Below are positions 46,148-62,490 of a DNA stretch of 64,000 nucleotides, one piece after another. Source of the stretch: Candidatus Woesebacteria bacterium (GTDB lineage: Bacteria > Patescibacteriota > Microgenomatia > UBA8517); assembly GCA_003484955.1 (NCBI GenBank), contig DMZH01000002.1:78825-142824 (forward strand), in the 5' to 3' direction. A program made the translations under genes and the position numbers. The notes under the pieces were generated by a model. The model searched no databases. It was given only the letters and a program-made list of their open reading frames with translations, and had not been told where the DNA came from. Within the stretch, counting starts at the first letter, position 1. Each line of letters begins with the position of its first letter.

Positions 46148-47404
46148 ATGTCGAAATTTATAATAGTCGGCGGCAACAAGCTTGAGGGAAAAATTAAGCT
46201 TTCCGGTAATAAAAACTCGGCTTTGAAGTTAATTCCCGCCGCACTTCTTGCCGATTCCCCCACGACCTTAACTAATGTGCCTGAAATTTCCGATGTTTCC
46301 GTAATGCTTGACCTTGTTTCAAAGCTTGGGGTTAAGGTTACAAAACGCGACCATGAAGTGACAATTGATCCTCAAGGGTTAGATTCTTTTGATCCGGATC
46401 CTGATTTGTCCGCGAAATTTAGAGCCTCCGTCGTTTTAGCTGCGCCTCTTTTGGTTCGGTTTGGGAAGGCAGTTGTAACTCCTCCCGGGGGAGACCAGAT
46501 CGGGGAAAGACTTCTTGATACCCATTTTGCCATGATGCAAAAGATGGGAGTGGAAATTAAGCGCACTGACGGGAGATATTTTTTGAACTGGAAGAAAAAA
46601 GTGTCCCCTGACATTTTTTTGGATGAGCCGTCCGTTACGGCTACTGAAATGGGACTTATAATGGCATCCTCCATGCCTGACGGTATAACTATCGACGATG
46701 CCGCAACAGAACCGCATGTTCTGGATTTGGCAAAAATGCTTTCCAAAATGGGTGCGGACATTTCCGGAATAGGATCCAATGTCTTAAAAATCAGAGGGGG
46801 AAAACTGCACGGAGTTGAGCACAGAGTCTGTCCGGATCATATTGAGGGCGGCACTTTTGCAATAGCGGCAGCCATAACCGGCGGAAAAATAGAAATAGAA
46901 GACTTCGACTTCAGGCAGTACCCCATGATGTTAAATTACTTGGGCTATATGGGTGTGAATTATAAACCCGGAGAAAATTCCCTTACGGTACTGCCTTCCA
47001 AACTGGTTTCTACTCGTGGAAAGTTTCAGACAAGGCCCTGGCCAGGTTTTCCGACTGATTTAATGAGCCCTTTCATTGTTCTTGCAACGCAGACTAAAGG
47101 CACTGTTGTCTGCCACGACTGGATGTATGAATGGAGAATGTTTTTTGTGGACGATCTTATTTCGATGGGTGCGAAAATATTTATCGCTGACCCCCATAGG
47201 GTTATAGTCAGCGGCCCGACGCCACTTATGAGTGACAGGCTTTTTTGTAAAGACATAAGAGCCGGTATTTCGGTAATTTTAGCCGCTCTTGCGGCTTCGG
47301 GCAGAAGTGAAATAGAAAATGTAGAGGTTGTTGCCAGGGGGTATGAAAATATTGGACAAAGACTTCGTTCGCTAGGAGCGGAGATTTTTGAAAAGAATGA
47401 GTAA
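46148..47404 (+). CDS. murA: UDP-N-acetylglucosamine 1-carboxyvinyltransferase
   Basis: MSKFIIVGGNKLEGKIKLSGNKNSALKLIPAALLAD, the typical EPSP-synthase-fold MurA. Confidence 0.9.
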   Translation: MSKFIIVGGNKLEGKIKLSGNKNSALKLIPAALLADSPTTLTNVPEISDVSVMLDLVSKLGVKVTKRDHEVTIDPQGLDSFDPDPDLSAKFRASVVLAAPLLVRFGKAVVTPPGGDQIGERLLDTHFAMMQKMGVEIKRTDGRYFLNWKKKVSPDIFLDEPSVTATEMGLIMASSMPDGITIDDAATEPHVLDLAKMLSKMGADISGIGSNVLKIRGGKLHGVEHRVCPDHIEGGTFAIAAAITGGKIEIEDFDFRQYPMMLNYLGYMGVNYKPGENSLTVLPSKLVSTRGKFQTRPWPGFPTDLMSPFIVLATQTKGTVVCHDWMYEWRMFFVDDLISMGAKIFIADPHRVIVSGPTPLMSDRLFCKDIRAGISVILAALAASGRSEIENVEVVARGYENIGQRLRSLGAEIFEKNE

Positions 47405-48392
47405 AATTCCCAATATTGTCATTATTGGAGGAGGGACGGGTTCGTACGTTGTTGCTTCGGGATTAAGCCGCGCTCCTGTTCACATTACAATGTTGATGAC
47501 AATGGTGGATGATGGAGGTTCAAACCGAATAATCCGCGACGAATTCGGTCTACTTCCGACCTCAGGCATCAGACAGGCAATAGTTGCCCTGTCTGAAAAC
47601 AAAACCGTTTTGAGAAAATTGTTTACATACCGCTACAGCAAAGGAGGAGAGGGTTTGGACGGGATGACATTTGGGAATCTATTCATGGCTGCAATGGCTG
47701 ACATAATGGGTTCGCAAAAAAAAGGGATAGAAGAAACCTGCAGACTTTTACAGGTAAAAGGGGATATTATTCCGATTAGCTATGACAATGCCAGATTAAT
47801 GGCTAAATATGAAGACGGTTCCGAGGCCGTCGGCGAACACAATATAGATATATCCAGAAGTGCAGGAGTCAGAATTAAGAATCTGAAGATTTTACCGGCT
47901 GTGAAGTTAAATTCCAAGGCAAAAAAGGCAATTTTGGAAGCAGACATCATAATTATCGGACCGGGAGATTTTTATACCAATACAATTGCTAACCTGGTGG
48001 TTGACGATGTCGTAAATGCTTTAAAAAAATCCAAAGGAGAAATTTTGTTTATAGCCAATTTAATGAATTCACGCAGCGAAACTCCGGGATATGCGTTATC
48101 GGATTTTTTTGCCGACCTGAAAAAATATATGCCGCTTGGTCTGGTGAAAAAAGTCTTGGTTAACAACAACAATAATTTTCCAAAGCCCGCTCTTAAAGCT
48201 TATGCGCTTGAAAACACATTTCCTGTAAAAGATGATTTAAAGACTAAAATTTTTGGTAATGGAGTTAAAATAATCAGAACAGACCTCCTTTCCGATAAAA
48301 TTCCAAAGAAAGAAAAAGGGGATGCTCTCAACAGAAGTATGATACGCCATGATCCGGATAAACTTCGTGCGGCAATTTTGAATAGTTTTTAA
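47388..48392 (+). CDS. yvcK: YvcK/GlmR-family (UPF0052/CofD-like) gluconeogenesis factor
   Basis: IVIIGGGTGSYVVASGL...MVDDGGS signature. Confidence 0.8.
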   Translation: MKRMSKIPNIVIIGGGTGSYVVASGLSRAPVHITMLMTMVDDGGSNRIIRDEFGLLPTSGIRQAIVALSENKTVLRKLFTYRYSKGGEGLDGMTFGNLFMAAMADIMGSQKKGIEETCRLLQVKGDIIPISYDNARLMAKYEDGSEAVGEHNIDISRSAGVRIKNLKILPAVKLNSKAKKAILEADIIIIGPGDFYTNTIANLVVDDVVNALKKSKGEILFIANLMNSRSETPGYALSDFFADLKKYMPLGLVKKVLVNNNNNFPKPALKAYALENTFPVKDDLKTKIFGNGVKIIRTDLLSDKIPKKEKGDALNRSMIRHDPDKLRAAILNSF

Positions 48393-48397
48393 AAAAT

Positions 48398-50173
48398 ATG
48401 TGCGGAATATTTGGATATGTTGGTAATAGAAATGACGGACAGAAACTGGTTTTTAGTGGTTTGAAAAGTCTTGAATACCGCGGATACGACAGTTGGGGAG
48501 TTGGGGTAATCCCCGAGGAAAGTAAAAACACGATAGCCATAAAGAAGAAAGTTGGTAAAATCGGAAACGCCAACGTCAGCGATTTGCCGGGAGGCAGTCT
48601 TTCATTCGGCCATACACGCTGGGCAACCCACGGCGGCGTGACGGACGCAAACGCACACCCGCATCTTGATTGCAGCGGTACCATTGCCGTCATCCATAAT
48701 GGGATTTTTGAAAATTATGAGGAGATAAAAAAAGGGCTATTGAGGAAGGGTCATAAATTTGTTTCCGAAACGGATACGGAAACTCTGACACACCTCCTTG
48801 AGGATTTTAGTAAAGACAAGCCTTTTGCCGAGGCGGTAAGGGCGGCATTTAACCGCATGGATGGGCTTAATGCCGTGATAGCTGTCAGTGCTAAGGAAAA
48901 TTTACTGGTAGCCGCCAGGAACGGATCCCCTCTGGTAATCGGGTTTGGTAAGAATGAAAATTTTTTGGCAAGCGACGCGTCGGCACTTCTTCCCTATACG
49001 AGAGATGTTTATTTCCTTGAAGATAATGAAATGGCCGTTCTTGCCCCCGGCAAAGTTACTATTTTGAATGTAAAAACCGCCAAAGAGATTACCCCTAAAA
49101 GAAAAAGGCTGGATTGGAAAATTGAACAAGGTGAAAAGGGAAAATATAAGTTTTATATGCTTAAAGAAATTTTTGAGCAGCCTCAAATTATTACGGATAT
49201 TGCCGTATCCGGAGCTTCTCAGGCTGAAGAAATAGCAAAAAAAATCAAGGACGCGCGGGGAACTTATTTGGTTGGCTGTGGGACAGCTTCATATGCCTGT
49301 CTCGCGGGCTCGTATTTGTTTTCTAAACTGGCAAAACGGCATGTAAACTTTGCGATAGGTAGCGAGTTTGGCTACAGTTTGGATTTCTTAAACAAAGATA
49401 GTCTGGTGATTGCAATTTCACAGTCCGGAGAAACGATGGATATTCTGGAATCGGTTAAAAAAGCCAAAGATAAGGGCGCAAAAATTCTGAGTCTGGTAAA
49501 TGTTCCCGGTTCATCCCTTTACAGGCTATCCGATTATAAAATGCTGATTGGAGCCGGTCAGGAGAGGGCGGTTGCGTCAACAAAGGCTTTTACCGGCATG
49601 GTTGCGCACCTAGTGCTTTTGGCCAATTCATTAAACGGCGGAGTAAAAGAAGGTCAAAAATCACTGATGGCAGCAGTTAAGTCGGTTAATCAGATATTAT
49701 CCCTCAAATCTCTAAGAAAAATTAAAGAACTTACATCGCGAATTGTAGACAAAAAACATATCTATGTAATCGGGCGTGGGCTTTCTTATCCGGCAAGCCT
49801 TGAAACAGCACTTAAAATTAAGGAAATTTCATACATCCATGCCGAAGGCCTTGCCGCGGGCGAACTTAAGCATGGCCCGCTTGCTTTGATTGAAAAAGGT
49901 ACTCCGTGTATCAGTTTTCTCCCTAACGATGAGACTTACGGATCAAATCTTGCCGGAGCTATGGAAATGAAGGCAAGAGGAGGCTATATTATCGGGATTT
50001 CTCATAAACCTCGCGAGGTTTTTGATTATTATATACATGTTTCCGATGCCGGGGAGTCCAGTATTATTCCCGAGGTTATTGTTGCTCAGCTTCTTGCCTA
50101 CTACCTCACAATAAAGAAAGGACTTGATCCGGATAAACCCAGAAATTTGGCAAAGTCCGTTACAGTTAAATAA
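48398..50173 (+). CDS. glmS: glutamine--fructose-6-phosphate aminotransferase (isomerising)
   Basis: MCGIFGYVG Ntn-Cys start and two SIS domains. Confidence 0.9.
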   Translation: MCGIFGYVGNRNDGQKLVFSGLKSLEYRGYDSWGVGVIPEESKNTIAIKKKVGKIGNANVSDLPGGSLSFGHTRWATHGGVTDANAHPHLDCSGTIAVIHNGIFENYEEIKKGLLRKGHKFVSETDTETLTHLLEDFSKDKPFAEAVRAAFNRMDGLNAVIAVSAKENLLVAARNGSPLVIGFGKNENFLASDASALLPYTRDVYFLEDNEMAVLAPGKVTILNVKTAKEITPKRKRLDWKIEQGEKGKYKFYMLKEIFEQPQIITDIAVSGASQAEEIAKKIKDARGTYLVGCGTASYACLAGSYLFSKLAKRHVNFAIGSEFGYSLDFLNKDSLVIAISQSGETMDILESVKKAKDKGAKILSLVNVPGSSLYRLSDYKMLIGAGQERAVASTKAFTGMVAHLVLLANSLNGGVKEGQKSLMAAVKSVNQILSLKSLRKIKELTSRIVDKKHIYVIGRGLSYPASLETALKIKEISYIHAEGLAAGELKHGPLALIEKGTPCISFLPNDETYGSNLAGAMEMKARGGYIIGISHKPREVFDYYIHVSDAGESSIIPEVIVAQLLAYYLTIKKGLDPDKPRNLAKSVTVK

Positions 50174-50248: not shown

Positions 50249-50572
50249 ATGTCTACGGAAAACATGGGTGAGTTTATTAGAAGCCTCCTTCAGAAGGACG
50301 ATTCTTTGACGGATCTAAACAATTGCCGTAATTCTACGTCAAAAATAGGGAAAGAAGTAAAAGGCAAATTTCCTGAAGCTAAAACAGAAGTTTTGGTCTA
50401 TCCGGAACCCAGCGCAGGATACGGTGTGCATTATTCGCTTTTGATTGCCCAGGGCGATGAAGAAATTCTGGTTAACGCCGTAGCCGCTCCAGGGTTCCCC
50501 GAGTATATTGGAAGTTCTAAGGCTGCTCCTCCAACGTTTACAGCAATGAAGGTAACGCCGAGGGTAATATAG
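50249..50572 (+). CDS. hypothetical small protein
   Basis: 107-aa ORF, no motifs. Confidence 0.3.
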   Translation: MSTENMGEFIRSLLQKDDSLTDLNNCRNSTSKIGKEVKGKFPEAKTEVLVYPEPSAGYGVHYSLLIAQGDEEILVNAVAAPGFPEYIGSSKAAPPTFTAMKVTPRVI

Positions 50573-50588: not shown

Positions 50589-51761
50589 TTAACCTCTAAA
50601 AGTGTAAATAATCCGGTTTTCTTTCAAGTCTGCAATTTTCTTAAATCCGTAGTTTGTATAAAGTTTGTTCGCATGGACGTTGTCTTTCGCCGTGCTAAGC
50701 CAGACCCCTTTTTCATTGGATACCCTAAAATCTTTAAAGACAATATACATAAATTTTGATGAAAGTCCTTTGCTGCGGGCCGGAGGATAATTTCTTATTG
50801 CAAAAGTGTAGCCACAGTTAGATGTCTTTAAAAGTTTGGAAACTCTGACGGGTGCGGTTTTGCTGCTAAACCAAATTATTCCGAGGAGTTTATTTCTACG
50901 CCCGACCATTACATAAATTTTTTTTCCACGCTTTTTCCAGGAAATAAAGGCCTTGAATGAACTGAAACGCTCCCTGTCATGTGTAAATTTTTTGATCAAG
51001 TTGTCTTTGCCGGTTGAGTGAATTAATTGTTCAATTTGGGGCTTGGAAATTTCTCTTAATATAGAAATATTTTCTTTTATATTCCTTTGAGACAAGATGC
51101 CTACGAAATTTTTCAGATAATGAATAAGATTTTCGGAAGAATCCGTTTCATAATCAATCGATATTTTATCCTTTGGCAGAATATTCTTATATTTTCCAAA
51201 CCTGAACCAGACAGTGATACATCCAGGGTCAACTCTTTTAGCTTTTTCCAGAAAATGGGCTCTATCATCCACCATTATTATTTGGTTATAGCCGGACGCT
51301 TTGAATTTCAGAATTGTACCCCCGAGTGCGGTTTTTTTATTTTTCAGAATTACGATATTGTCTTTGCCTATTAATTTTTCAATTCCGCTTCCATTTATTT
51401 TAGTAGGTTGGTAATGGGCATCACCCAAGGAGTAGAGGGTTACTTTTCCGCCACCCTTCAATATTTTTATTAGTTTGTCCGAGTGCTTGAAAACGAATTT
51501 TTTAAACTCCGCTTTGAAAAACAAGTCCTCAAAATCCTTTGCCGAACCATCCCCGAATTTTTTGTGTAAATCTTTGGAAATTTCTTTAATATCAACATAT
51601 TTCAAAGCTTTAACCGATTCGGCGTAAGTTTTCCAAAATAGGGATAAGTTTTTATCGCCAAATCTTTTTTTGAAATTTTCGGAGATGGATCTTTTTAGGG
51701 CATCGGTATCAAAAAGGGTGTTGTCAAAATCGATAAGATAAACTCTTTTGGGTTCTCTCAT
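50589..51761 (-). CDS. HAD-superfamily hydrolase/phosphomutase domain fused to a GNAT N-acetyltransferase domain
   Basis: HAD motif I LIDFDNTLFDTD (DxDxT), a cap region, motif IV IIMVDDRAH. C-terminal GNAT motif A ARSKGLS (R-x-x-G-x-S) and motif B NVHANKLYTNYGFKK. Confidence 0.65.
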   Translation of the reverse strand: MREPKRVYLIDFDNTLFDTDALKRSISENFKKRFGDKNLSLFWKTYAESVKALKYVDIKEISKDLHKKFGDGSAKDFEDLFFKAEFKKFVFKHSDKLIKILKGGGKVTLYSLGDAHYQPTKINGSGIEKLIGKDNIVILKNKKTALGGTILKFKASGYNQIIMVDDRAHFLEKAKRVDPGCITVWFRFGKYKNILPKDKISIDYETDSSENLIHYLKNFVGILSQRNIKENISILREISKPQIEQLIHSTGKDNLIKKFTHDRERFSSFKAFISWKKRGKKIYVMVGRRNKLLGIIWFSSKTAPVRVSKLLKTSNCGYTFAIRNYPPARSKGLSSKFMYIVFKDFRVSNEKGVWLSTAKDNVHANKLYTNYGFKKIADLKENRIIYTFRG

Positions 51762-51824
51762 TGTTATAATCTTGCCCTTGCCTCAATTGGAGTCGGGCTC
51801 GATTGCTGATATAATATACCACAG

Positions 51825-53834
51825 ATGATCAAAAATCTTGGGGAATTAATCGGAAAGCTTTCCAGTTACAAAGGTTTGACCGACGACTCGAGAAAGGTTG
51901 AAAAAGGCCATATTTTTGTTGCCGTCAGAGGTGTTGGAAGTGACGGTCACGACTATATTAAAGACGCTTTCAAAAACGGCGCTTCCCTGGTAGTGGGCGA
52001 AAAGGATATCAAAATCGGGAATTATCTTAAAGTTAAAGACAGCCGCGAAGCCCTGGGACAACTTGCGTCCGTTTGGTTTGGCCGCCCTTCCGAAAAACTT
52101 AAAATGATCGGGATTACCGGAACAAAAGGAAAAACCACGACTGCACACATTATTCATCACATTTTAAATTCCCTTGGAAAAAGAGTTGGAATTTTGTCCT
52201 CAATTTCGGTGCCCGGCCTTCATGTTACAAGTCCTGATGTAATTTCTTTGCATAAATTCCTAAAGAAATTTGTCGATGATGGGGACGAATATGCAGTTGT
52301 CGAAGTCAGCTCTCATGGGATTGACCAAAAAAGAATCGCCGGGATTCACTTTGACGTTGGAGTGCTGACCAATATAGCGCCGGAGCACTTGGATTATCAC
52401 AGGACCTTCAAAGAGTATAAAAAGGTAAAAAAGTCATTTATAAATTCCTGTAAATGGAAAGTTATTTCTCCCAAAGACACTTCCATAAATGTATTGCCGG
52501 GAAAATACAATAATTTGAACGTCGAGGTGGCTATCTCAGCGGTTGAAAAATTTGGTATTTCAAGGAATAGTGCCCTAAAAGTGCTTAAAGATTTTAGACT
52601 GCCGGAAGGAAGACTTGCCGAAATAAAAAACGATATAGGCGCAAACATTATTATAGATTTTGCGCATACTCCAGATTCGCTTGAGGCGGTATTGACCCAT
52701 CTTCGCGGGACTACTCGGGGAAAACTTATTTCCTTATTCGGGTGTGCGGGGGAAAGAGATCCAAGAAAAAGATTTAAAATGGGCAAAATTTCAGCAAAGT
52801 TAAGCGACATTTCAGTTTTTACCGCAGAGGATCCGAGAAGCGAGAATGTCTTTGACATCTTGTCAAAAATGTCGGAAGGGGCGAGAAGTGCAAACGCCAA
52901 AGAAGATAAAACTTTTTTCAAAATTGCGGAGCGTGGTGAAGCAATTGCCTATGCCCTCTCTCTTTGCAAAAAAGGAGATACGGTTGCAATTTTAGGAAAA
53001 GGCCATGAAAAAAGCATGGCATATGGGGTTTACGAACACCCTTGGAGCGACAAGGAAATAGTTGAAAACTTTCTGGGCAGAAGTAAGGACATATCTGCCG
53101 TGATTCTGGCTGCTGGAAAAGGGACGAGAATGAAATCAACTCTGCCTAAAGTTATTCACAAAATTTGTGGACGGCCGATGATTGCCTACACATTGGAAAA
53201 TTTAAGATCCGCAGGAGTAGGAAGCATTACTGCAGTTATTTCTTTTAAAAGGAATCAGGTGGCAAAGTACATTAAAGGTGCCATTGAGCTTGCTATACAG
53301 AAAAATCCCAAGGGAGGAACTGCGGATGCGGCCAGGGCAGGTTTTGTAAAAGTACCTCCTTCCTCAAAGATACTGATTGTTATAAACGGAGATGACAGTG
53401 CCTTTTACAAGCCGGAAACAATCAGGCAAATTATTAAGATTCATGTTGAGAGGCAAAGGGCGCTGACATTTGTTTCACTTATGAAAAACAACCCAACCGG
53501 GCTTGGTAGGGTTATCAGGGGTAAAAACGGTCTTATTACAAAAATCGTTGAAGAAAGAGATGCCACACCCGAGGAAAAAAATATTAAAGAGGTTAATGAC
53601 GGCCTTTATGTTTTCGATAAAGACTGGTTTGCCAAAAATATCGATAATGTCAAAAAGAGCAAGCAGGGCGAATATTATCTGGTAGATTTAATTAAGATGG
53701 CGATTGATCAGGGAATGAGGATGGCAACCTATACTTTGCCGGATGACAGTGAATGGCAGGGAATAAATACTCCTGAGGAATTGGAAAAAGCCAGGATAAA
53801 AATGGAAGAAAGATTGGGGACTTTCAATGAATAA
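51825..53834 (+). CDS. murE: MurE (UDP-MurNAc-L-Ala-D-Glu:diamino acid ligase) fused to a GlmU-type sugar-1-phosphate uridylyltransferase domain (no LbH acetyltransferase domain)
   Basis: Mur ligase GITGTKGKTTT at aa 1 to about 420. The C-terminal third (about nt 53090-53831) carries the GlmU N-domain signature: ILAAGKGTRM, LPKVIH, GTADA, GLGR, QGEYYLVDLI. A single uninterrupted frame. Confidence 0.8.
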   Translation: MIKNLGELIGKLSSYKGLTDDSRKVEKGHIFVAVRGVGSDGHDYIKDAFKNGASLVVGEKDIKIGNYLKVKDSREALGQLASVWFGRPSEKLKMIGITGTKGKTTTAHIIHHILNSLGKRVGILSSISVPGLHVTSPDVISLHKFLKKFVDDGDEYAVVEVSSHGIDQKRIAGIHFDVGVLTNIAPEHLDYHRTFKEYKKVKKSFINSCKWKVISPKDTSINVLPGKYNNLNVEVAISAVEKFGISRNSALKVLKDFRLPEGRLAEIKNDIGANIIIDFAHTPDSLEAVLTHLRGTTRGKLISLFGCAGERDPRKRFKMGKISAKLSDISVFTAEDPRSENVFDILSKMSEGARSANAKEDKTFFKIAERGEAIAYALSLCKKGDTVAILGKGHEKSMAYGVYEHPWSDKEIVENFLGRSKDISAVILAAGKGTRMKSTLPKVIHKICGRPMIAYTLENLRSAGVGSITAVISFKRNQVAKYIKGAIELAIQKNPKGGTADAARAGFVKVPPSSKILIVINGDDSAFYKPETIRQIIKIHVERQRALTFVSLMKNNPTGLGRVIRGKNGLITKIVEERDATPEEKNIKEVNDGLYVFDKDWFAKNIDNVKKSKQGEYYLVDLIKMAIDQGMRMATYTLPDDSEWQGINTPEELEKARIKMEERLGTFNE

Positions 53835-55035
53835 ATTAAAGAAGATCCACATGATGGGAATCGGCGGGAGTGGAATATCTGCCGTTGCCCTCCTCGCCTC
53901 CAAAATGGGCTATGAGGTTACGGGCTGTGATCTGGAGGAGCAGACCGCCTACGCTAAGAATTTTTTTAAAGGACATGATCCAAGCCACCTGGAAGGAATA
54001 GACTTTCTTATAGTTTCGCCTGCAATTTATTATCAAAACAAAGAAAATCCGGAGCTTATCGAGGCGGAGAAAAGAAAAATCGTAATGACCTGGCAGGAGT
54101 TTCTCGGAAAATATTTGACCGAGGGCAAGAAAGTAATTTGCATTGCGGGCACCCACGGCAAGTCTACAACAACAGCAATGGTAGGTAAGCTTTTAGTTGA
54201 TGCAGGTTTGGACCCTTCAGTTGTTGTCGGCGCAAAAATACCAGAATGGGAGGCAAATGCAAGGTTTGGCAAAGGAGAATATTTTGTAATCGAGGCAGAC
54301 GAATTTAATAATAATTTCCTAAACTATCATCCCGACATAATTATTATTAACAATATTGAGTTTGACCATCCCGATTTTTTCAAAAACGAAGAGGAAGTAC
54401 GGGAAGCTTTCAGAAAATTTGTGAACAATCTTAAAGGAGAGAAAATTTTAATTATGGAAAAAGATAATTCTGGGAAAAAGTTTCATTTAAAGATTTTTGG
54501 AGAACACAATCAGAAGAATGCAAACCTGGTTTATGTTTTGGGTAAAAAGTTGGGAATAGCCGAAGAGACCATTGTTAAATCTTTGGAGAGTTTTTCCGGA
54601 ATCGGGAGGAGAATGGAGCTTATTGCGGGTCGTGGTGGCGTAAAGATTTTTGATGATTATGCTCACCATCCGACCGCCATAAAAACAACGATTGAAGGTT
54701 TAAGAAAAGAATTTCCCGAATCAAAAATTTGGGTAATTGATGAACCGCACGGTTTTGCGAGGACTCATGCGCTTCTTCCGAAATATGATGGAGTTTTTAA
54801 TGCGGCGGATAAAATTATAGTTGGACCGATTTTTAAAGCTCGTGACAGTGAAACTTTTGGGATAACTCCGGAAGATGTTGCCCGTGCCACCGGCAACAAA
54901 AACGCGATTGGGATTAATTCTTTTGAAAAAATTAAGAAAATGTTATTGGAAGAAGTTAAATCGGGAGATATTATTTTGGTAATGGGAGCAGGAAAAAGTT
55001 ATTTATGGGCCAGGGAGATTGCCGAGTTGATATAA
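53827..55035 (+). CDS. murC: UDP-N-acetylmuramate--L-alanine ligase
   Basis: IHMMGIGGSGISAVALLASKMGYEVTGCD (MurC N-domain) and CIAGTHGKSTTT. Confidence 0.8.
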   Translation: MNKLKKIHMMGIGGSGISAVALLASKMGYEVTGCDLEEQTAYAKNFFKGHDPSHLEGIDFLIVSPAIYYQNKENPELIEAEKRKIVMTWQEFLGKYLTEGKKVICIAGTHGKSTTTAMVGKLLVDAGLDPSVVVGAKIPEWEANARFGKGEYFVIEADEFNNNFLNYHPDIIIINNIEFDHPDFFKNEEEVREAFRKFVNNLKGEKILIMEKDNSGKKFHLKIFGEHNQKNANLVYVLGKKLGIAEETIVKSLESFSGIGRRMELIAGRGGVKIFDDYAHHPTAIKTTIEGLRKEFPESKIWVIDEPHGFARTHALLPKYDGVFNAADKIIVGPIFKARDSETFGITPEDVARATGNKNAIGINSFEKIKKMLLEEVKSGDIILVMGAGKSYLWAREIAELI

Positions 55036-55043
55036 TTAGTTCT

Positions 55044-56057
55044 ATGAAAATAATTGAAGACAAAAAATTTAAAGATTTAACGACTTTCCGCATCGGAGGG
55101 AAGATAAAATATTATGTTGAAGTAAAAAGCGAGGGTGAGATAAGAGAGATGATCCGGTTTGCAAAAACCAACAACCTGCCGATTTTTATAGTTGGTGACG
55201 GAAGCGATTTTTTGGCCAGCGACAGGAAGTATGAGGGGCTGGTAATTAAATATACAGGCGATGGTTTAAAATTCGAAGTTCAAGATTCTGAGGTTTTTGT
55301 AACAGCGGGGGCGGGACTCAATTGGGATAAATTGGTTGAAGAAACCGTAAAAAGAAATCTTCAAGGATTGGAATGCCTTTCGGGGGTTCCCGGGACAGCA
55401 GGGGCAGCTCCGATTCAAAATATGGGTGCTTACGGACAGGAAGTGGCAGATACTTTTTATAAGCTTGAGGCCTATGATATTCAAAATGAAGAGCATAAAA
55501 CTTTTACCAAAGAGGACTGTAAATTCGGCTACAGGGAAAGTGTTTTTAAGGATAAAGAAAACTGGCAGAAATATCTGATTATCAGTGTAACTTTCAAGTT
55601 GAGTAAAGACGGGAAACCAAACACAAGCTATGAGTCGTTGAAAAATTCTGTCGGCGAGGGAGCAACACTGCAAGAGGTTAGGAAAGCGGTTTTGAAAACC
55701 AGAAAGGAAAAACTGGAGGATCCGAAAGAAGTCGGCAATGCTGGATCGTTTTTTAAAAATCCCGTGATAGATGTCGATGAGAAAGTCAGGATTGAAAAAG
55801 AGTTTGCCGATGCAAAAATCTTTCCGTTTAAAAATATGTATAAAGTTTCCGCTGCCTGGATGATAGAAAGAGCCGGATGGAAAGGAAAAAGCGAAGACGG
55901 GGTTGCGGTTTCGCCCAAACACGCTCTTATTTTGATAAACAAAAGCGGATATGCATCTGCCGAGGATGTCTATAAACTTTCGGAGATGATAATAAAGGAT
56001 GTTTCTGAGAAATTCGGAGTTAAGCTTGAGAGGGAAGTTCAGTTGATCAATTTTTAA
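55044..56057 (+). CDS. murB: UDP-N-acetylenolpyruvoylglucosamine reductase
   Basis: TTFRIGGKIKYYVEVKSEGEI...PIFIVGDGSD FAD-binding domain and a C-terminal MurB domain. Confidence 0.85.
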   Translation: MKIIEDKKFKDLTTFRIGGKIKYYVEVKSEGEIREMIRFAKTNNLPIFIVGDGSDFLASDRKYEGLVIKYTGDGLKFEVQDSEVFVTAGAGLNWDKLVEETVKRNLQGLECLSGVPGTAGAAPIQNMGAYGQEVADTFYKLEAYDIQNEEHKTFTKEDCKFGYRESVFKDKENWQKYLIISVTFKLSKDGKPNTSYESLKNSVGEGATLQEVRKAVLKTRKEKLEDPKEVGNAGSFFKNPVIDVDEKVRIEKEFADAKIFPFKNMYKVSAAWMIERAGWKGKSEDGVAVSPKHALILINKSGYASAEDVYKLSEMIIKDVSEKFGVKLEREVQLINF

Positions 56058-56084
56058 CTACAGCGCATTAATGCACCATAATTT

Positions 56085-57332
56085 ATGAATAATAAAATTG
56101 CGATTTTGGGATATGGTCTTGAAGGTCAGGATGCAGAAAAGTATTTCAAGAATCTTGGAGACGAAGTTACTGTTTTAGATAAGAAATTTGACGAAAATTA
56201 TCTTAAAAATCTGAATGACTTTAATATTATTGTTCGTTCTCCGGGTGTTTACAGATATCTGCCCGAAATTGTAAAAGCAGAAGAAAACGGGGTTAAAATA
56301 ACATCCTCTTTAAAAATATTTTTTGATAACTGTCCGGGAAATATTATCGGCGTGACCGGAACAAAGGGAAAAGGAACAACCTCAACTTTAATTTATGAAA
56401 TTCTTAAGAATGCCGGAAAAGACGTTTATCTGGTAGGGAATATCGGGAAACCTTATTTGGAACTTCTTTCAAAACTCACAAAAAACAGTTTCGTAATAAT
56501 GGAGCTTTCTTCTTTTCAGTTAATCGACTTAACCAAAAGTCCGCATATTGCGGTAGTCTTAAATATCACCCTTGATCATATGGATTGGCATAAGAGTAAA
56601 GAAGAATATGTAGAGGCCAAGAAAAATATCCTGAGTTACCAAAGTCCCGACGATTTTGCAATATTAAACGAGGAATATGAAACACCAAAAAGTTTTGTAG
56701 AAGCCGCAAAAGGAAAAACAGTTTTTTTCTCAAAGACCAAGCTTGAACAGAAATACAAAGAGAATTTACTTCTTCGTGGTGAGCATAATTTGGAAAACAT
56801 TGCCGCTGCCGTTGCTGCCGCAAAAATTGTCGGCATTAACGAGGGGACAATTCTGGAAACCGTGAGGTCTTTTAAGGGGTTGGAGCACAGACTTGAGTTG
56901 GTTGACACGATAGAAGGCATAGCCTTTTACAACGATTCTTTTGCAACCGGCCCCCAGCCGACGATTGCGGCAATGAACTCGTTTACTGATCCCGAAACTC
57001 TGATTCTTGGCGGAAGCGATAAAGGCCTGGACTATCAGGAATTAATGCGCGAGATAGAAAAAAAGGAAAACATCAAAAATCTTATTTTGATTGGCGACGT
57101 CGGAAATAAAATTACCGATATCTTGAAGGGTTACGCCTTTCAAGGCAGTGTAATCAACATGGGGCACTCATCGATGGAGGAAATCGTCAAAAAAGCTTTC
57201 GAGATAACCCCTAGGGGCGGCATTGTAATCCTGTCACCGGCAGCGGCCAGTTTTGATATGTTCAAAGACTATAAAGACAGGGGAAACCAATTTAAGAAGT
57301 CAGTTTTTAAACTCAGAGACCTACCTGTATAA
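56085..57332 (+). CDS. murD: UDP-N-acetylmuramoylalanine--D-glutamate ligase
   Basis: IAILGYGLEGQ...GVTGTKGKGTT. Confidence 0.85.
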   Translation: MNNKIAILGYGLEGQDAEKYFKNLGDEVTVLDKKFDENYLKNLNDFNIIVRSPGVYRYLPEIVKAEENGVKITSSLKIFFDNCPGNIIGVTGTKGKGTTSTLIYEILKNAGKDVYLVGNIGKPYLELLSKLTKNSFVIMELSSFQLIDLTKSPHIAVVLNITLDHMDWHKSKEEYVEAKKNILSYQSPDDFAILNEEYETPKSFVEAAKGKTVFFSKTKLEQKYKENLLLRGEHNLENIAAAVAAAKIVGINEGTILETVRSFKGLEHRLELVDTIEGIAFYNDSFATGPQPTIAAMNSFTDPETLILGGSDKGLDYQELMREIEKKENIKNLILIGDVGNKITDILKGYAFQGSVINMGHSSMEEIVKKAFEITPRGGIVILSPAAASFDMFKDYKDRGNQFKKSVFKLRDLPV

Positions 57333-58391: not shown

Positions 58392-59222
58392 TTGTCATAT
58401 AATACCTTTATGCTTAGGGAGCAAGATAAGCCTGTCGGGGTTTTTGACTCGGGTCTTGGAGGTTTAACGGTAGTCAAAGAACTGACTAAAATTTTACCGC
58501 ATGAGAACCTGGTATATTTGGGCGATACCGCCAGGGTTCCTTACGGCCCGCGCGGAGTAGAAACAATTAAACGCTTTTCTGAAGAAAATACCAGATTTTT
58601 AATAGGAGAGAATGTCAAAGCGGTGGTGATTGCCTGCAACACATCTTCGGCGGTTGCGGCGGACTTCCTGAAAAGTACTTTTCCAAAAATTCCGATATTT
58701 GAAGTGATAAGCTCGGCTTCCAATGAGGCTTCGCGAGGTACCCGTTCTATTGGGGTTATCGGGACATACGGAACAGTAGGGAGTCATGCTTACGCTAAAA
58801 ATATTTCCAAAAATTTGTCCCGAACAAAAGTTATTGAAAAGGCGTGTCCCCTCTTTGTCCCGTTTATTGAGGAAGGGGAGATAGGGAGTAAAGCGCTAAA
58901 GCTGGTTGCAAAAGGGTACCTGTCGGAGCTTAAAAAACAAAAAGTAGGCACCTTGATTATGGGCTGCACCCATTACCCTATCATTAAAAATATTATTAGT
59001 GAAACAATGGGTAAGGGTGTTACCTTGATCAATCCCGGAAAATCTGTCGCAAAAGAAGTTTTTGATTTTTTAAAGAAAAATAATTTATTAAACAGGCAAA
59101 AAAAGAAGGGAACTGCCGACTTCTATGTTACGGACCTCACAGATAGATTCACAAAGGTTGCGGAAATGTTTCTAGGGAAAAAGATAAAAAATGATCTAAA
59201 AATCGCCAGGCTGACAAAATGA
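58392..59222 (+). CDS. murI: glutamate racemase
   Basis: PVGVFDSGLGGLTVVKEL...YLGDTARVPYGPRG...ACNTSS...GCTHYP. Confidence 0.9.
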   Translation: MSYNTFMLREQDKPVGVFDSGLGGLTVVKELTKILPHENLVYLGDTARVPYGPRGVETIKRFSEENTRFLIGENVKAVVIACNTSSAVAADFLKSTFPKIPIFEVISSASNEASRGTRSIGVIGTYGTVGSHAYAKNISKNLSRTKVIEKACPLFVPFIEEGEIGSKALKLVAKGYLSELKKQKVGTLIMGCTHYPIIKNIISETMGKGVTLINPGKSVAKEVFDFLKKNNLLNRQKKKGTADFYVTDLTDRFTKVAEMFLGKKIKNDLKIARLTK

Positions 59223-60148
59223 ACAAAAAACTAAAAGTAGCGGTACTAATGGGCGGCAAGTCATCGGAACATGAGGTATCGATAGTGTCCGGCAAAGAAG
59301 TTATAAAAAACTTAGACAAGAAGAAATATATGGTTTATCCTCTGGTAATTTCGAAAGACGGAAAAGGACTAAATAAAATTGTCAAAATTAATCCGGATAT
59401 CGCCTTTATAGCCCTTCACGGAAAATACGGAGAGGATGGAAAAATTCAAGGTTTCCTTGAAGTAATAGGTATTCCATACGTTGGTTCGGGCGTGCTTGCG
59501 TCCGCCATTGGAATGGATAAGGAAATTTTCCGAGAGTTGATGAATTTTCATAAAGTACCCATCCCCGAATATGTGTTTTTGAAGAAGGGTGAAAAATATC
59601 AAAGTGTTTATAAAACATTGGGTGCTCCGCCTTACTTTGTGAAACCGGTCGAGGGAGGTTCCTCGATAGGTGTTTCGCCGGCAAAAAATTTAAATGAGCT
59701 TAAAAAATCCATGAACCTGGCGTTTGAGTATGACAACAGAATTTTAGTGGATAAATATATAAAAGGAAGAGAGTTTACCTGTGCCGTTACGGGAAACGAT
59801 AAACCGATAGCACTTCCGGTCGTGGAAATAAAACCCCTGAAAGGGAGTTTTTTTGATTATGAATCAAAATATGCCGAAAGCGGTTCGGAAGAAATAGTTC
59901 CGGCTAGAATTTCGAAAACCCTTACGGAAAAAATCCAGAAAATCGCGTTGGAAGTTTATAGAATTGTCGGATGCCGTGGCTTTGGAAGAGTTGATTTTAT
60001 TTTAAAGGACGGCAGAACCCCTGTTGTTTTGGAAGTCAATACAATACCGGGACTTACGCCGATGTCTCTTTTTCCCAAGGCGGCAAAAGCGGCGGGTATT
60101 TCATATCCCCGTCTGCTTGATATGATCATCGACTTAGTCAAGTCGTAG
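59219..60148 (+). CDS. ddl: D-alanine--D-alanine ligase
   Basis: KVAVLMGGKSSEHEVSIVSGK and an ATP-grasp C-terminal domain. Confidence 0.9.
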   Translation: MNKKLKVAVLMGGKSSEHEVSIVSGKEVIKNLDKKKYMVYPLVISKDGKGLNKIVKINPDIAFIALHGKYGEDGKIQGFLEVIGIPYVGSGVLASAIGMDKEIFRELMNFHKVPIPEYVFLKKGEKYQSVYKTLGAPPYFVKPVEGGSSIGVSPAKNLNELKKSMNLAFEYDNRILVDKYIKGREFTCAVTGNDKPIALPVVEIKPLKGSFFDYESKYAESGSEEIVPARISKTLTEKIQKIALEVYRIVGCRGFGRVDFILKDGRTPVVLEVNTIPGLTPMSLFPKAAKAAGISYPRLLDMIIDLVKS

Positions 60149-60182
60149 AATCATCAGTCTTGCTGATGTAAAATGATTAAAG

Positions 60183-61403: not shown

Positions 61404-61429
61404 ATGCTGTTATAATCTAACTGATCCGT

Positions 61430-62479: not shown

Positions 62480-62490
62480 GTTTATCTTAA

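What the first reader, a model, noticed from the sequence alone, without database searches (positions are those of the whole stretch)
51825..53834. MurE fused in-frame to a GlmU uridylyltransferase-only domain
A single 669-aa frame joins a complete Mur ligase (GITGTKGKTTT...) to a nucleotidyltransferase domain. That domain has near-textbook GlmU N-domain motifs (ILAAGKGTRM, LPKVIH, QGEYYLVDLI) but no hexapeptide-repeat acetyltransferase domain. A fusion of this kind is not familiar to me from textbook dcw clusters. It would physically link UDP-GlcNAc synthesis to a late cytoplasmic peptidoglycan step.
Basis: seen in the sequence. Interest (0 to 1): 0.65.

Follow-up and report, generated by a model that had tools for sequence, protein, structure and literature searches.

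The report
MurE fused to acetyltransferase-less GlmU
In one lineage of ultra-small (CPR) bacteria, a cell-wall peptide ligase (MurE) is genuinely and stably fused to the half of GlmU that makes UDP-GlcNAc; the missing acetylating half is probably supplied by a neighbouring gene of a different enzyme type, which bears on a currently open question about how such bacteria make this essential sugar nucleotide.

Summary
Window 51825-53834 (+) is one uninterrupted 669-aa ORF: a MurE ligase (aa 1-417), a junction with essentially no linker, and a GlmU-type uridylyltransferase domain (aa ~424-664) with no hexapeptide acetyltransferase.

It is not an assembly artefact. At least 120 protein clusters from independent NCBI, JGI, ENA and Logan assemblies (Woesebacteria/Microgenomates) share the architecture. 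The junction has no indels, and both active sites are invariant.

Sister lineages show the origin: murE and a standalone glmU(N) gene are adjacent with overlapping stop/start codons. Elsewhere the same domain is fused to MurC, or to a HAD domain.

The two enzymes catalyse non-consecutive steps, so direct substrate channelling is unlikely. Fixed 1:1 co-expression, or assembly into a Mur complex, is more plausible.

The missing acetyl step has a candidate. A HAD-GNAT gene (50589-51761, minus strand) is transcribed divergently from the fusion in 7 of 7 genomic contexts. Its HAD subfamily is fused to GlmU(N) in about 12 independent clusters.

I found no published description of this chimera; a 2023 survey of Mur chimeras omits it. 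I rate it a new variant of a known kind, of moderate-to-good interest.

The parts
51825..53834 (+). Whole murE-glmU(N) ORF, 669 aa including stop
   Evidence: Searches show an uninterrupted frame. One search finds at least 120 homologous clusters of the same length and architecture.
51825..53075 (+). MurE moiety (aa 1-417): Mur ligase N, central (shortened) and C-terminal domains. P-loop GTKGKTT at aa 99-105, K202, and an EDPR motif at aa 335-338.
   Evidence: Pfam. (TIGR01085 403 bits, NF001126 395 bits, both above cut-off). [quoted passage not shown] (invariant catalytic columns).
53076..53093 (+). Junction (aa 418-423, GRSKDI): effectively linkerless and of fixed length
   Evidence: no gaps or insertions at aa 401-440 in 121 sequences; exactly 18 aa between the PWSD and LAAGxG motifs in 106 of 106 sequences matching both patterns; in the AF2 model, helix 409-417 leads into strand 420-428 with pLDDT about 89-95; the DNA aligns without indels in three assemblies.
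53094..53816 (+). GlmU-type N-terminal uridylyltransferase domain (aa 424-664), with no LbH domain
   Evidence: GlmU models match positions 2-240 only; best solved matches are GlmU N-domains (1HM0/1G95, E about 1e-38). G14, R18, K25, G81, T82, D105, G140, E154, N169, E195, Y197 and N227 (E. coli numbering) are invariant or nearly so in 121 sequences.
53827..53834 (+). 8-nt overlap of the fusion's last codons and stop with the murC start
   Evidence: murC occupies 53827..55035.
50589..51761 (-). HAD-GNAT gene (390 aa), transcribed divergently from the fusion. It is the candidate supplier of the missing acetyl step, and possibly of a phospho-sugar mutase or phosphatase step.
   Evidence: weak Pfam matches to HAD and Acetyltransf_1; invariant HAD motifs (D10, D12, T14, D164, D165) and GNAT acetyl-CoA motifs. 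AF2 model with pLDDT 90.7 and pTM 0.89; divergent adjacency to MurE-GlmU(N) in 7 of 7 contexts; the same HAD subfamily is fused to GlmU(N).
51762..51824 (.). 63-bp divergent intergenic region shared by HAD-GNAT and the fusion
   Evidence: One search gives the sequence; -10-like boxes lie close to both start codons. The consensus scan reported no site inside this region.
48398..50173 (+). glmS (makes GlcN-6-P, the first step of the pathway), upstream in the same cluster
   Evidence: GATase and SIS domains; synteny.
47388..48392 (+). CofD/YvcK-like gene, a conserved neighbour of glmU(N)/glmS in CPR mur clusters
   Evidence: PF01933. (synteny).
46148..47404 (+). murA
   Evidence: EPSP_synthase family, with mur context.
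53827..57332 (+). murC, murB and murD, immediately downstream and co-directional
58392..63597 (+). murI, ddl, murF, mraY and ftsW, completing the cluster

Best explanation
SHOWN:
- The ORF encodes a genuine, evolutionarily stable two-enzyme polypeptide, characteristic of Woesebacteria-type CPR bacteria (Microgenomates).
- Its N-terminal 417 aa are a MurE ligase, which adds the third residue to UDP-MurNAc-L-Ala-D-Glu.
- Its C-terminal ~245 aa are a GlmU-type sugar-1-phosphate uridylyltransferase with an intact active site and no LbH acetyltransferase domain.
- In sister lineages murE and a standalone glmU(N) gene are adjacent, with overlapping stop/start codons. The fused junction has a fixed length and essentially no linker.

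INFERRED:
- The fusion arose when that stop/start boundary was lost between the two adjacent genes.
- The C-terminal domain converts GlcNAc-1-P and UTP into UDP-GlcNAc.
- The two active sites work independently. Four enzymes (MurA, MurB, MurC, MurD) act between them, so direct channelling is unlikely. The fusion instead enforces 1:1 co-production and a rigid co-placement of the first committed nucleotide-sugar step with the Mur ligases. This is as proposed for other natural Mur chimeras, and UDP-GlcNAc is needed again by MurG at the end of the cytoplasmic pathway.
- The acetylation lost with the LbH domain is supplied in trans. In this lineage the most likely supplier is the divergently transcribed HAD-GNAT protein: its GNAT domain as the acetyltransferase, and its HAD domain as a phospho-sugar mutase or phosphatase. 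GlcN-6-P would come from the adjacent glmS.
For: Reality and conservation of the fusion:
- intact ORF; both domains detected; at least 120 clusters at 59-98% identity, 630-714 aa, from NCBI, JGI, ENA and Logan, on contigs up to 1.08 Mb.
- further MurE-fused clusters down to about 39% identity.
- seven named MAG loci with the same synteny.

Both halves are under selection:
- both halves have similar column conservation (0.7-0.9).
- the uridylyltransferase catalytic and GlcNAc-binding residues are invariant, including N169, whose importance is shown experimentally in bioRxiv 10.64898/2026.06.23.733835.
- the MurE P-loop, K202, H188 and related columns are invariant.

Origin:
- L083/L084 have murE followed by a standalone 254-aa glmU(N) with an ATGA stop/start overlap.
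- the same domain is fused to MurC in Daviesbacteria, Curtissbacteria and others.

Rigid junction:
- no indels; a constant 18-aa spacing.
- AF2 model with pLDDT 90.4 and pTM 0.86.

Acetyl step supplied in trans:
- the 64-kb window has no LbH GlmU-C and no second GlmU.
- HAD-GNAT is divergently adjacent to the fusion in 7 of 7 contexts, spanning 39-96% identity, while other neighbours rearrange.
- the HAD and GNAT HMMs hit nothing in 73 MurE loci from other phyla.
- about 12 representative clusters plus P0291-P0293 are GlmU(N)-HAD proteins carrying the same HAD subfamily (E 1e-22 to 1e-38).
- one GlmU(N)-HAD-GNAT protein.
- in L088 the divergent neighbours of a GlmU(N)-HAD gene are an NTP-transferase + LbH protein and a HAD, which parallels HAD-GNAT here.
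Against: - No biochemistry is available. The substrate of the uridylyltransferase domain and of the GNAT domain is inferred, not shown.
- Only about half of the fusion-bearing loci examined carry HAD-GNAT or a GNAT at that position (absent in L004-L006). The family has only 19 clusters against at least 120 for the fusion. So it cannot be the universal partner.
- The GNAT domain has no specific similarity to the known GlcN-6-P acetyltransferase GNA1.
- The HAD domain's structural neighbours are generic C1-cap hydrolases, haloacid dehalogenases and NANP, not beta-phosphoglucomutase. A mutase role is therefore unsupported by structure.
- The triple GlmU(N)-HAD-GNAT protein is a singleton on one 5.6-kb contig.
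- Whole genomes could not be searched. A GlmM, or an LbH acetyltransferase encoded elsewhere, cannot be excluded. Some CPR mur clusters do carry an NTP-transferase + LbH gene.
- The fusion could be selectively neutral: the fixed junction length may only reflect tightly abutting secondary-structure elements.
Confidence: 0.6

Rival explanations
1. Neutral fusion. The fusion is real, but it is only a by-product of genome streamlining. Adjacent genes with overlapping stop/start codons merged; both enzymes work exactly as they would separately; and the fusion confers no benefit in assembly, stoichiometry or regulation.
For: -: the unfused state has a 4-nt stop/start overlap, so a small indel is enough to fuse the genes.
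- genes in this cluster commonly overlap.
- the same lineages also fuse MurC to MurB and GlmU(N) to MurC, which suggests a general tendency to fuse.
- The two reactions are non-consecutive (established pathway knowledge).
- in a rough tree, fused and unfused forms are interleaved.
Against: -: the junction length is invariant (18 aa) from about 39% to 98% identity.
- the inter-domain geometry is predicted with confidence (pTM 0.86).
- the fusion is retained across a deep clade.

These observations are suggestive of a constraint but not decisive.
Confidence: 0.3
2. A different substrate. The C-terminal domain is not a GlcNAc-1-P uridylyltransferase. It might act like MurU on MurNAc-alpha-1-P (salvage to UDP-MurNAc, feeding the Mur ligases directly). 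Or it might act on GlcN-1-P to make UDP-GlcN, which a GNAT then acetylates, as PseH and WecD do with nucleotide amino-sugars.
For: - Fusion to a Mur ligase would make more pathway sense for a UDP-MurNAc-forming enzyme.
- a relative (P0179) is fused to an APH-type sugar kinase, as in AmgK-MurU salvage.
- HAD phosphatases take part in that salvage route (MupP; PMC5371409, listed).
- GNATs that acetylate nucleotide amino-sugars are well known (own knowledge).
Against: -: GlmU models score about 195-207 bits, while the MurU model NF045761 scores 40 bits against a cut-off of 250.
- the solved MurU-like structure 4Y7T matches only at E = 9e-6.
- the GlcNAc-contacting residues of GlmU (G140, E154, N169, E195, Y197) are invariant.
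- murA, murB and glmS are all present in the cluster, so a de novo route is encoded.
Confidence: 0.08
3. Assembly or sequencing artefact. A chimeric join or a frameshift error has falsely merged two genes.
For: Separate murE and glmU(N) genes do exist in other lineages. Read-level data could not be inspected.
Against: -: at least 120 independent clusters from four sources share the same architecture.
- identical synteny in many independent assemblies.
- the junction DNA has no indels across three assemblies, and the differences are mostly at third codon positions.
- composition is continuous across the junction.
- the junction spacing is invariant.
Confidence: 0.01

Closest known systems
Natural Mur chimeras: MurE-MurF, MurC-Ddl, MurC-MurB, MurG-MurC, MurD-FtsW, MraY-MurG (Shirakawa et al. 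2023, PMC10214165; B. pertussis MurE-MurF structure 8F5D)
   Same: A Mur ligase is fused in one polypeptide to another enzyme of peptidoglycan synthesis. It arose from neighbouring genes of the dcw/mur cluster. The junction is linkerless, as in B. pertussis MurE-MurF. The partners need not catalyse consecutive steps, as with MurG-MurC or MurC-Ddl. 8F5D is the second-best solved match to the MurE half.
   Different: The partner is a UDP-GlcNAc-forming uridylyltransferase, an enzyme upstream of the whole Mur pathway and not normally in the dcw cluster. This pairing is absent from the survey (GlmU is mentioned 0 times), and the survey excluded proteins from unidentified species. The chimera occurs in CPR/Microgenomates rather than Proteobacteria, Actinobacteria or PVC.
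Bifunctional GlmU (TIGR01173; E. coli, S. pneumoniae 1HM0/1G95)
   Same: The N-terminal domain fold, the signature LxxGxGTxMxxxxPK and all catalytic and GlcNAc-binding residues are shared. Identity to S. pneumoniae GlmU over the domain gives E about 1e-38.
   Different: There is no LbH acetyltransferase or trimerisation domain. The domain sits at the C-terminus of MurE. Full-length GlmU model scores fall below their cut-offs.
Truncated, N-terminal-only GlmU homologues noted in bacteria by Fong et al. 2026 (bioRxiv 10.64898/2026.06.23.733835)
   Same: Both have a uridylyltransferase domain without the acetyltransferase, which implies 'an unidentified acetyltransferase'.
   Different: That study looked only at NagU-containing RefSeq genomes and names no candidate acetyltransferase. 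Here the domain belongs to a large CPR family embedded in mur clusters, and it is fused to MurE, MurC or HAD, with a specific HAD-GNAT neighbour.
Eukaryotic hexosamine pathway: GNA1 (a GNAT acting on GlcN-6-P), AGM1 mutase and UAP1
   Same: If the HAD-GNAT hypothesis holds, acetylation would be done by a GNAT-fold enzyme and would be separate from uridylyl transfer, as in eukaryotes.
   Different: No specific sequence or structural similarity to GNA1 was found. The uridylyltransferase is GlmU-type, not UAP1/NagU-type. The putative mutase would be HAD-type, not an alpha-D-phosphohexomutase.
MupP-AmgK-MurU peptidoglycan sugar salvage in Pseudomonas
   Same: It combines a HAD phosphatase, an anomeric sugar kinase and a small standalone uridylyltransferase. 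Relatives of the domain are fused to HAD or to an APH-type kinase.
   Different: The MurU model scores far below its cut-off. No APH kinase was detected in the window. A de novo route (glmS, murA, murB) is encoded.

Membership tests
MurE (UDP-MurNAc-L-Ala-D-Glu: amino acid ligase; TIGR01085) | Three-domain Mur ligase architecture (N-terminal, central ATPase, C-terminal) | tested here: met
   PF01225 at aa 15-81, PF08245 at aa 97-235, PF02875 at aa 262-393. The central domain is about 65 aa shorter than in T. maritima MurE.
MurE (UDP-MurNAc-L-Ala-D-Glu: amino acid ligase; TIGR01085) | Score above the curated MurE family cut-off, and best reciprocal similarity to MurE rather than MurC, MurD or MurF | tested here: met
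   TIGR01085 scores 403 bits against a cut-off of 257, and NF001126 scores 395 against 373; the murF, murD and murC models score far lower; the top solved matches are all MurE.
MurE (UDP-MurNAc-L-Ala-D-Glu: amino acid ligase; TIGR01085) | ATP-binding P-loop GxxGKT, and the conserved Lys (carbamylated in solved MurE/MurD), His and Glu of the central domain | tested here: met
   G99-T-K-G-K103-T-T, E160, H188, K202, N229 and N230 are invariant in 62 sequences.
MurE (UDP-MurNAc-L-Ala-D-Glu: amino acid ligase; TIGR01085) | DNPR motif, typical of meso-DAP-adding MurE | tested here: not met
   the motif is E335-D-P-R338 (E, D and R invariant). It aligns with DDPR of the T. maritima L/D-Lys ligase. 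Which amino acid is added is therefore uncertain. This concerns specificity, not membership of MurE.
MurE (UDP-MurNAc-L-Ala-D-Glu: amino acid ligase; TIGR01085) | Ligase activity on UDP-MurNAc-dipeptide | not testable with these tools
   Needs an enzyme assay.
Bifunctional GlmU (TIGR01173 equivalog) | N-terminal uridylyltransferase domain with the LxxGxGTxMxxxxPK signature and catalytic residues R18, K25, D105, E154, N169 and N227 | tested here: met
   all are present, and each is invariant in 120 or 121 of the 121 fused sequences.
Bifunctional GlmU (TIGR01173 equivalog) | C-terminal left-handed beta-helix (hexapeptide) GlcN-1-P acetyltransferase domain | tested here: not met
   there is no Hexapep match, and GlmU profiles are matched only at positions 2-240 of ~450. 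The protein ends at aa 669 and murC follows.
Bifunctional GlmU (TIGR01173 equivalog) | Whole-protein score above the curated cut-off | tested here: not met
   195 bits against a cut-off of 366.85 for TIGR01173; all PRK143xx GlmU models are also below their cut-offs.
Natural Mur chimeras (as surveyed in PMC10214165) | A Mur-pathway ligase and a second peptidoglycan-pathway enzyme encoded as one conserved polypeptide | tested here: met
Natural Mur chimeras (as surveyed in PMC10214165) | Belongs to one of the described chimera types (MurE-MurF, MurC-Ddl, MurC-MurB, MurG-MurC, MurD-FtsW, MraY-MurG) | tested here: not met
MurU (MurNAc-alpha-1-P uridylyltransferase; NF045761) | Score above the curated cut-off | tested here: not met
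   40 bits against a cut-off of 250.
GNA1-type GlcN-6-P N-acetyltransferase (considered for the neighbouring HAD-GNAT gene) | GNAT fold with an acetyl-CoA-binding R/Q-x-x-G-x-G/A motif | tested here: met
   an Acetyltransf_1 match; R328-x-x-G331-x-S; and a confident GNAT fold in the model.
GNA1-type GlcN-6-P N-acetyltransferase (considered for the neighbouring HAD-GNAT gene) | Specific sequence or structural similarity to GNA1, or demonstrated activity on GlcN-6-P | tested here: inconclusive
   only generic GNAT matches, with no GNA1 among the listed hits. Activity cannot be tested here.
HAD-superfamily phosphomutase, beta-PGM-like (considered for the HAD domain of the neighbour) | DxDxT nucleophile and acid/base motif, plus motifs II-IV | tested here: met
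   D10, D12, T14, S110, K141, D164 and D165 are invariant or nearly so. These motifs are shared with HAD phosphatases, so they do not discriminate between the two.
HAD-superfamily phosphomutase, beta-PGM-like (considered for the HAD domain of the neighbour) | Closest structural neighbours are phosphomutases | tested here: not met
   the top neighbours are 2P11 (function unknown), L-2-haloacid dehalogenases and NANP/HDHD4. No beta-PGM appears in the top 50.

The most novel reading that the evidence does not exclude
Microgenomates (CPR) bacteria may make UDP-GlcNAc by a non-canonical route that lacks both the LbH acetyltransferase half of GlmU and possibly GlmM.

In this route glmS would supply GlcN-6-P. 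A GNAT domain would acetylate it. A dedicated HAD-family domain would move or handle the phosphate, for example as a HAD-type phosphohexosamine mutase. The GlmU(N) domain would then add UMP. That is a eukaryote-like order of reactions built from non-orthologous parts. The HAD module is repeatedly fused to GlmU(N) at the position the LbH domain normally occupies, and the uridylyltransferase itself is built into MurE or MurC.

If so, the HAD-GNAT gene at 50589-51761 would be the 'unidentified acetyltransferase' asked for in the 2026 NagU preprint.
Probability: 0.25. Interest if true: 0.8.

Novelty: new variant of a known kind. Interest (0 to 1): 0.6.

Why it matters
- **A new type of Mur chimera.** GlmU has long been treated as the universal, essential bacterial route to UDP-GlcNAc, and Mur-enzyme fusions are used as evidence for a cytoplasmic Mur complex. 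This locus adds a seventh, undescribed chimera type. It ties the supply of nucleotide sugar directly to a Mur ligase in a major uncultivated lineage.

- **A whole family without the acetyltransferase.** Uridylyltransferase-only GlmU is shown here to be a large family that is routinely embedded in CPR cell-wall operons.

- **A testable candidate for an open question.** A specific, syntenic HAD-GNAT protein, and a GlmU(N)-HAD architecture, are nominated for a question raised explicitly in 2026: which enzyme acetylates the glucosamine phosphate when the LbH domain is absent? This can be tested by complementing E. coli glmU or glmM depletion strains and by simple in vitro assays.

- **Annotation.** These proteins are currently labelled only 'MurE' or 'NTP transferase domain-containing protein'. 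Pathway reconstructions for CPR genomes will therefore miscall UDP-GlcNAc synthesis.

Tried and rejected
- **Chimeric assembly or frameshift:** rejected.

- **A GlmU-C-like acetyltransferase elsewhere in the window:** I scanned essentially all ORFs of at least 120 aa with Pfam. The only hexapeptide protein (20779-21375) is maltose/galactoside O-acetyltransferase-like and lies in a glycan cluster.

- **GlmM in the window or in related loci:** no PGM_PMM domain was found in the window. A phosphohexomutase signature scan of 338 kb of CPR loci found nothing. It also found nothing in the 1.2 Mb of control loci, so the scan is uninformative.

- **The 349-aa ORF at 57342-58391 as an anomeric sugar kinase:** rejected. 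It has only weak similarity to PLP aminotransferases.

- **The triple GlmU(N)-HAD-GNAT protein as strong Rosetta-stone evidence:** downgraded, because it is a singleton on one short contig.

- **Monophyly of the MurE fusions:** a quick NJ tree was too poorly resolved to decide between one and several fusion events.

- **Literature:** searches for a description of a MurE-GlmU fusion, or of GlmM/GlmU status in CPR bacteria, found nothing specific.

- **First MAFFT --add residue mapping:** it slipped register and was replaced by a pairwise alignment.
Full report
**1. The observation**

Window 51825..53834 (+) is a single 669-aa ORF with an ATG start and no internal stop.

- Pfam finds the three Mur-ligase domains (aa 15-393) followed by an NTP_transferase domain (aa 425-660).
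- NCBIfam scores the N-terminal part as MurE above curated cut-offs: TIGR01085 at 403 bits against 257, and NF001126 at 395 against 373.
- All GlmU models match only their first ~240 of ~450 positions.
- The protein ends five residues after that domain, and its stop overlaps the murC start. So there is no hexapeptide/LbH acetyltransferase domain.

The one qualification is that the MurE central domain is about 65 aa shorter than in Thermotoga maritima MurE. The neighbouring Mur ligases are short as well.

**2. It is not an artefact**

- A search of 5.8 billion proteins returned at least 120 clusters (at 90% identity) with 59-98% identity to the query. All are 630-714 aa long and all carry both domain sets. 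They come from NCBI, JGI, ENA and Logan assemblies, on contigs up to 1.08 Mb. One is named 'NTP transferase domain-containing protein [Candidatus Woesebacteria bacterium]', and the JGI copies are named simply MurE.
- An exhaustive HMMER search of 1.84 billion representatives with the C-terminal domain alone found further MurE-fused clusters down to about 39% full-length identity.
- Seven species-representative MAGs carry the full fusion in the same gene order. They are Woesebacteria/Microgenomates; three records carry evidently automatic proteobacterial labels.
- Across 121 aligned sequences, the junction (aa 401-440) has no gap or insertion.
- The spacing between the MurE C-terminal PWSD motif and the GlmU LAAGxG loop is exactly 18 residues in all 106 sequences that match both patterns, including divergent clusters.
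- The junction DNA aligns without indels in three independent assemblies, with mostly third-position changes. Base composition is continuous across it.

**3. Both halves look active**

I mapped residues with a pairwise alignment to E. coli GlmU. On this mapping, G14, R18, K25, G81, T82, D105, G140, E154, N169 (120 of 121), E195, Y197 and N227 are invariant in the fused family. N169 is the residue whose substitution cripples S. aureus GlmU, according to Fong et al. 2026.

In the MurE half, the P-loop, E160, H188, K202, N229/N230 and the EDPR motif are invariant. The best solved matches are:

- for the other half, the S. pneumoniae GlmU N-domain.

An AlphaFold2 model built with a 62-sequence alignment is confident (pLDDT 90.4, pTM 0.86). 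It runs the last MurE helix (409-417) almost directly into the first GlmU strand (420-428). The fusion is therefore linkerless.

**4. Where the fusion came from**

The window holds an extended cell-wall cluster: mraW, ftsI, murA, cofD/yvcK-like, glmS, a 107-aa ORF, HAD-GNAT (minus strand), murE-glmU(N), murC, murB, murD, a 349-aa ORF, murI, ddl, murF, mraY and ftsW.

Among the 150 nearest 50%-identity representatives of the GlmU(N) domain, about 95 are standalone ~250-aa proteins. Their genes sit in CPR mur clusters:

- In L083/L084, a murE orthologue (same EDPR motif) is followed directly by a 254-aa glmU(N), and the murE stop overlaps the glmU(N) ATG (…AAATGATGAAA…). Then come pgeF, murC, murB and murA.
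- In L085/L086, the order is cofD, glmU(N), pgeF, murC.

The fusion is therefore a merger of two adjacent genes. Concatenating the unfused pair would give 23 residues between the two motifs, against 18 in the fusion.

In other Microgenomates (Daviesbacteria, Curtissbacteria and unnamed MAGs), the same domain is fused to the N-terminus of MurC instead. In several Woesebacteria-like loci, MurC and MurB are also one ORF. A rough NJ tree places the core fusions in one tight clade. The most divergent fused clusters are interleaved with MurC-fused and standalone forms, so the number of fusion events is unresolved.

**5. How it most likely works**

*Shown:* one polypeptide carries two intact catalytic modules, joined by a rigid junction of constant length.

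*Inferred:* MurE adds residue 3 of the stem peptide, and the C-terminal domain makes UDP-GlcNAc from GlcNAc-1-P and UTP. MurA, MurB, MurC and MurD act between these two reactions, so direct channelling is not expected.

The published view of Mur chimeras is that fusions of non-consecutive enzymes serve stoichiometric co-expression, stability and assembly of a cytoplasmic Mur complex (PMC10214165). That view fits here. UDP-GlcNAc is also consumed by MurG at the end of the cytoplasmic pathway.

A purely neutral fusion in a streamlined genome remains a serious rival. The invariant junction and the confident inter-domain prediction argue only mildly against it.

**6. The missing acetyl step**

Canonical GlmU acetylates GlcN-1-P with its LbH domain. 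The window has no such domain. Its only hexapeptide protein is maltose O-acetyltransferase-like and lies in a glycan cluster.

Immediately upstream of the fusion, on the opposite strand and 63 bp away, lies a 390-aa HAD-GNAT protein. Its HAD motifs (DxDxT, DD) and its GNAT acetyl-CoA motifs are invariant. Its model is confident and compact (pLDDT 90.7, pTM 0.89).

Four observations link it to GlmU(N):

- (a) In every genomic context recovered, it is directly adjacent to a MurE-GlmU(N) gene and transcribed divergently from it. It is the only opposite-strand gene in the cluster, while glmS and cofD move around it. The contexts are the window, L001, L002, L007, L090, L091 and L092, spanning 39-96% identity. 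L003 has a GNAT-only version at the same position.
- (b) HMMs of its two domains hit nothing in 73 MurE neighbourhoods from other phyla.
- (c) Twelve of the 150 nearest GlmU(N) representatives, plus P0291-P0293, are ~470-aa GlmU(N)-HAD proteins. Their HAD domain matches this HAD subfamily over its full length (E = 1e-22 to 1e-38). It sits at the position the LbH domain occupies in canonical GlmU, and these genes lie in the same slot of the mur cluster.
- (d) One protein (P0192) carries GlmU(N)+HAD+GNAT. It is a singleton on a 5.6-kb contig, so it carries little weight.

In L088, the divergent neighbours of a GlmU(N)-HAD gene are an NTP-transferase + LbH protein and a Cof-type HAD. That is another 'acetyltransferase-type domain plus HAD' pair.

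My best reading is that the GNAT supplies the acetylation in this sub-lineage, and that the HAD handles the sugar phosphate. The order of steps is not resolved: the acetyl acceptor could be GlcN-6-P, GlcN-1-P or UDP-GlcN. The chemistry of the HAD domain is not resolved either: it could be a mutase, a phosphatase or a pyrophosphatase. If the HAD is a mutase and the pathway runs in the eukaryote-like order, every observed fusion would join consecutive steps. That is attractive, but it is only an argument from parsimony.

*Against this reading:*

- HAD-GNAT is absent at this position in L004-L006, and the family has only 19 clusters.
- There is no specific similarity to GNA1 or to beta-PGM.
- Whole genomes could not be searched for GlmM or for LbH proteins.

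**7. Comparison with what is known, and novelty**

The 2023 survey of Mur chimeras lists six types, none involving GlmU, and it excluded proteins from unidentified species.

Fong et al. [quoted passage not shown]

Further literature searches found no description of a MurE-GlmU fusion, or of the HAD/GNAT association. Only the held open-access library was searched.

The proteins are abundant in public databases, but they are annotated only as MurE or as 'NTP transferase domain-containing protein'. I therefore class the finding as a new variant of a known kind: a Mur chimera combined with a truncated GlmU. A more novel pathway hypothesis is attached to it.

**8. Verdict**

Interest is 0.6. The fusion alone is a solid but modest curiosity. 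Its value rises because its genomic context yields a concrete and cheap experimental test of an explicitly open question about UDP-GlcNAc synthesis in bacteria that lack full-length GlmU.

Noticed in passing
window 57342-58391 (+): A 349-aa ORF sits between murD and murI and is conserved in L001 (87%). It has no Pfam family above threshold, only weak similarity to fold-type-I PLP aminotransferases (E = 0.028). It is an unassigned enzyme inside the mur operon, possibly linked to supply of the stem-peptide amino acid.
   Followed up: partly
window 50249-50572 (+): A 107-aa ORF lies between glmS and the 3' end of HAD-GNAT. It is conserved in L001 (89%) and L002 (78%) and matches no family.
   Followed up: partly
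L003 13103-15319, L004 12022-14238, L005 11971-14256, L007 5339-7540, L090 2871-5078: MurC and MurB are a single 734-762-aa ORF in related Woesebacteria-like genomes. In the window they are separate genes that overlap by 31 nt (53827-55035 and 55005-56057). This is a second Mur fusion in the same lineage.
   Followed up: partly
window 52827-52838 (MurE aa 335-338): The MurE motif that governs third-residue specificity is EDPR (E, D and R invariant in the family) rather than the DNPR of meso-DAP ligases. It aligns with DDPR of the T. maritima L/D-lysine-adding MurE. The stem-peptide residue 3 of these bacteria is therefore uncertain.
   Followed up: partly
window 51825-53075, 53827-55035, 60183-61403: The Mur ligases here are unusually short (MurE moiety 417 aa, MurC 402 aa, MurF 406 aa). 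MurE lacks about 65 aa of the central domain relative to T. maritima MurE, and Pfam Mur_ligase_M matches cover only about 130-140 of 200 positions in MurE and MurC.
   Followed up: partly
window 47388-48392 (+); also L004-L007, L085, L086, L088, L090-L092: A CofD/YvcK-like gene is a constant companion of murA, glmS and glmU(N) in these CPR mur clusters. From my own knowledge, not tested here: YvcK (GlmR) in Bacillus binds UDP-GlcNAc and regulates GlmS. That would fit a regulatory role in this cluster.
   Followed up: no
window 1-33744: A large cell-surface glycan cluster. It has more than 10 GT1/GT2/GT4 glycosyltransferases, five PMT_2 (ArnT/PMT-like) membrane glycosyltransferases, Wzy_C, a flippase, an AsnB-like amidotransferase, RmlD-like and C-methyltransferase genes, a ManC-like guanylyltransferase (29927-31081), a Bac_transf priming enzyme and a DUF4012 protein.
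   Followed up: no
window 9145-10101 (+): A Fic/DOC-domain protein with a RhuM-like N-terminal region is embedded in the glycan cluster.
   Followed up: no
L003 18649-21541, L005 17581-20487, L007 11247-14072: By sequence motifs, a trio of genes lies between a murF-like gene and mraY: alpha/beta-hydrolase-like, PLP-enzyme-like (DegT-like N-terminus) and FemAB-like ('SFLQSWxWGE'). This suggests interpeptide-bridge synthesis in these CPR bacteria. It was not checked with HMMs.
   Followed up: no
L091 3211-4026 (-): A 271-aa NUDIX + GNAT fusion lies between cofD and glmS, in a genome that also has HAD-GNAT next to MurE-GlmU(N). This is a second acetyltransferase-containing gene in the UDP-GlcNAc neighbourhood.
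   Followed up: no
L085 5728-7008 (+); L088 4997-6253 (-): Genes of 418-426 aa encoding NTP_transferase + LbH proteins (GMPPB_C / LbH_EIF2B type, resembling archaeal-type bifunctional enzymes by domain content) sit inside CPR mur clusters alongside the N-only glmU(N). In those genomes they may supply the acetyltransferase.
   Followed up: no
L083 2438-3121, L084 1151-1930, L085 8757-9452, L086 2004-2699: A Cu-oxidase_4 (YfiH/PgeF-family) gene immediately follows the standalone glmU(N) and precedes murC in the unfused clusters. It is absent between the fusion and murC in the window.
   Followed up: no
window 51762-51824: The 63-bp divergent intergenic region has TGnTATAAT-like boxes within about 10 nt of both start codons, which hints at very short or absent leaders. 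The simple promoter scan, which requires a -35 element, did not flag them.
   Followed up: partly
L001, L003, L007 (record titles): Public MAG records carrying this clearly Woesebacteria-type cluster are titled 'uncultured Gammaproteobacteria' or 'Alphaproteobacteria'. These are probably automatic mislabels. L001 is 94-99% identical in protein sequence to the window across the 16 longer cluster genes compared (87-89% for the two unassigned ORFs).
   Followed up: no
P0179, P0184, P0238, P0218 (relatives of the GlmU(N) domain): The N-only uridylyltransferase domain is also found fused to an APH-type sugar kinase (like an AmgK/NahK-plus-MurU salvage pair), to a short-chain dehydrogenase, to a C39 peptidase and to a PD-(D/E)XK domain. 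It appears to be a promiscuous fusion partner.
   Followed up: partly
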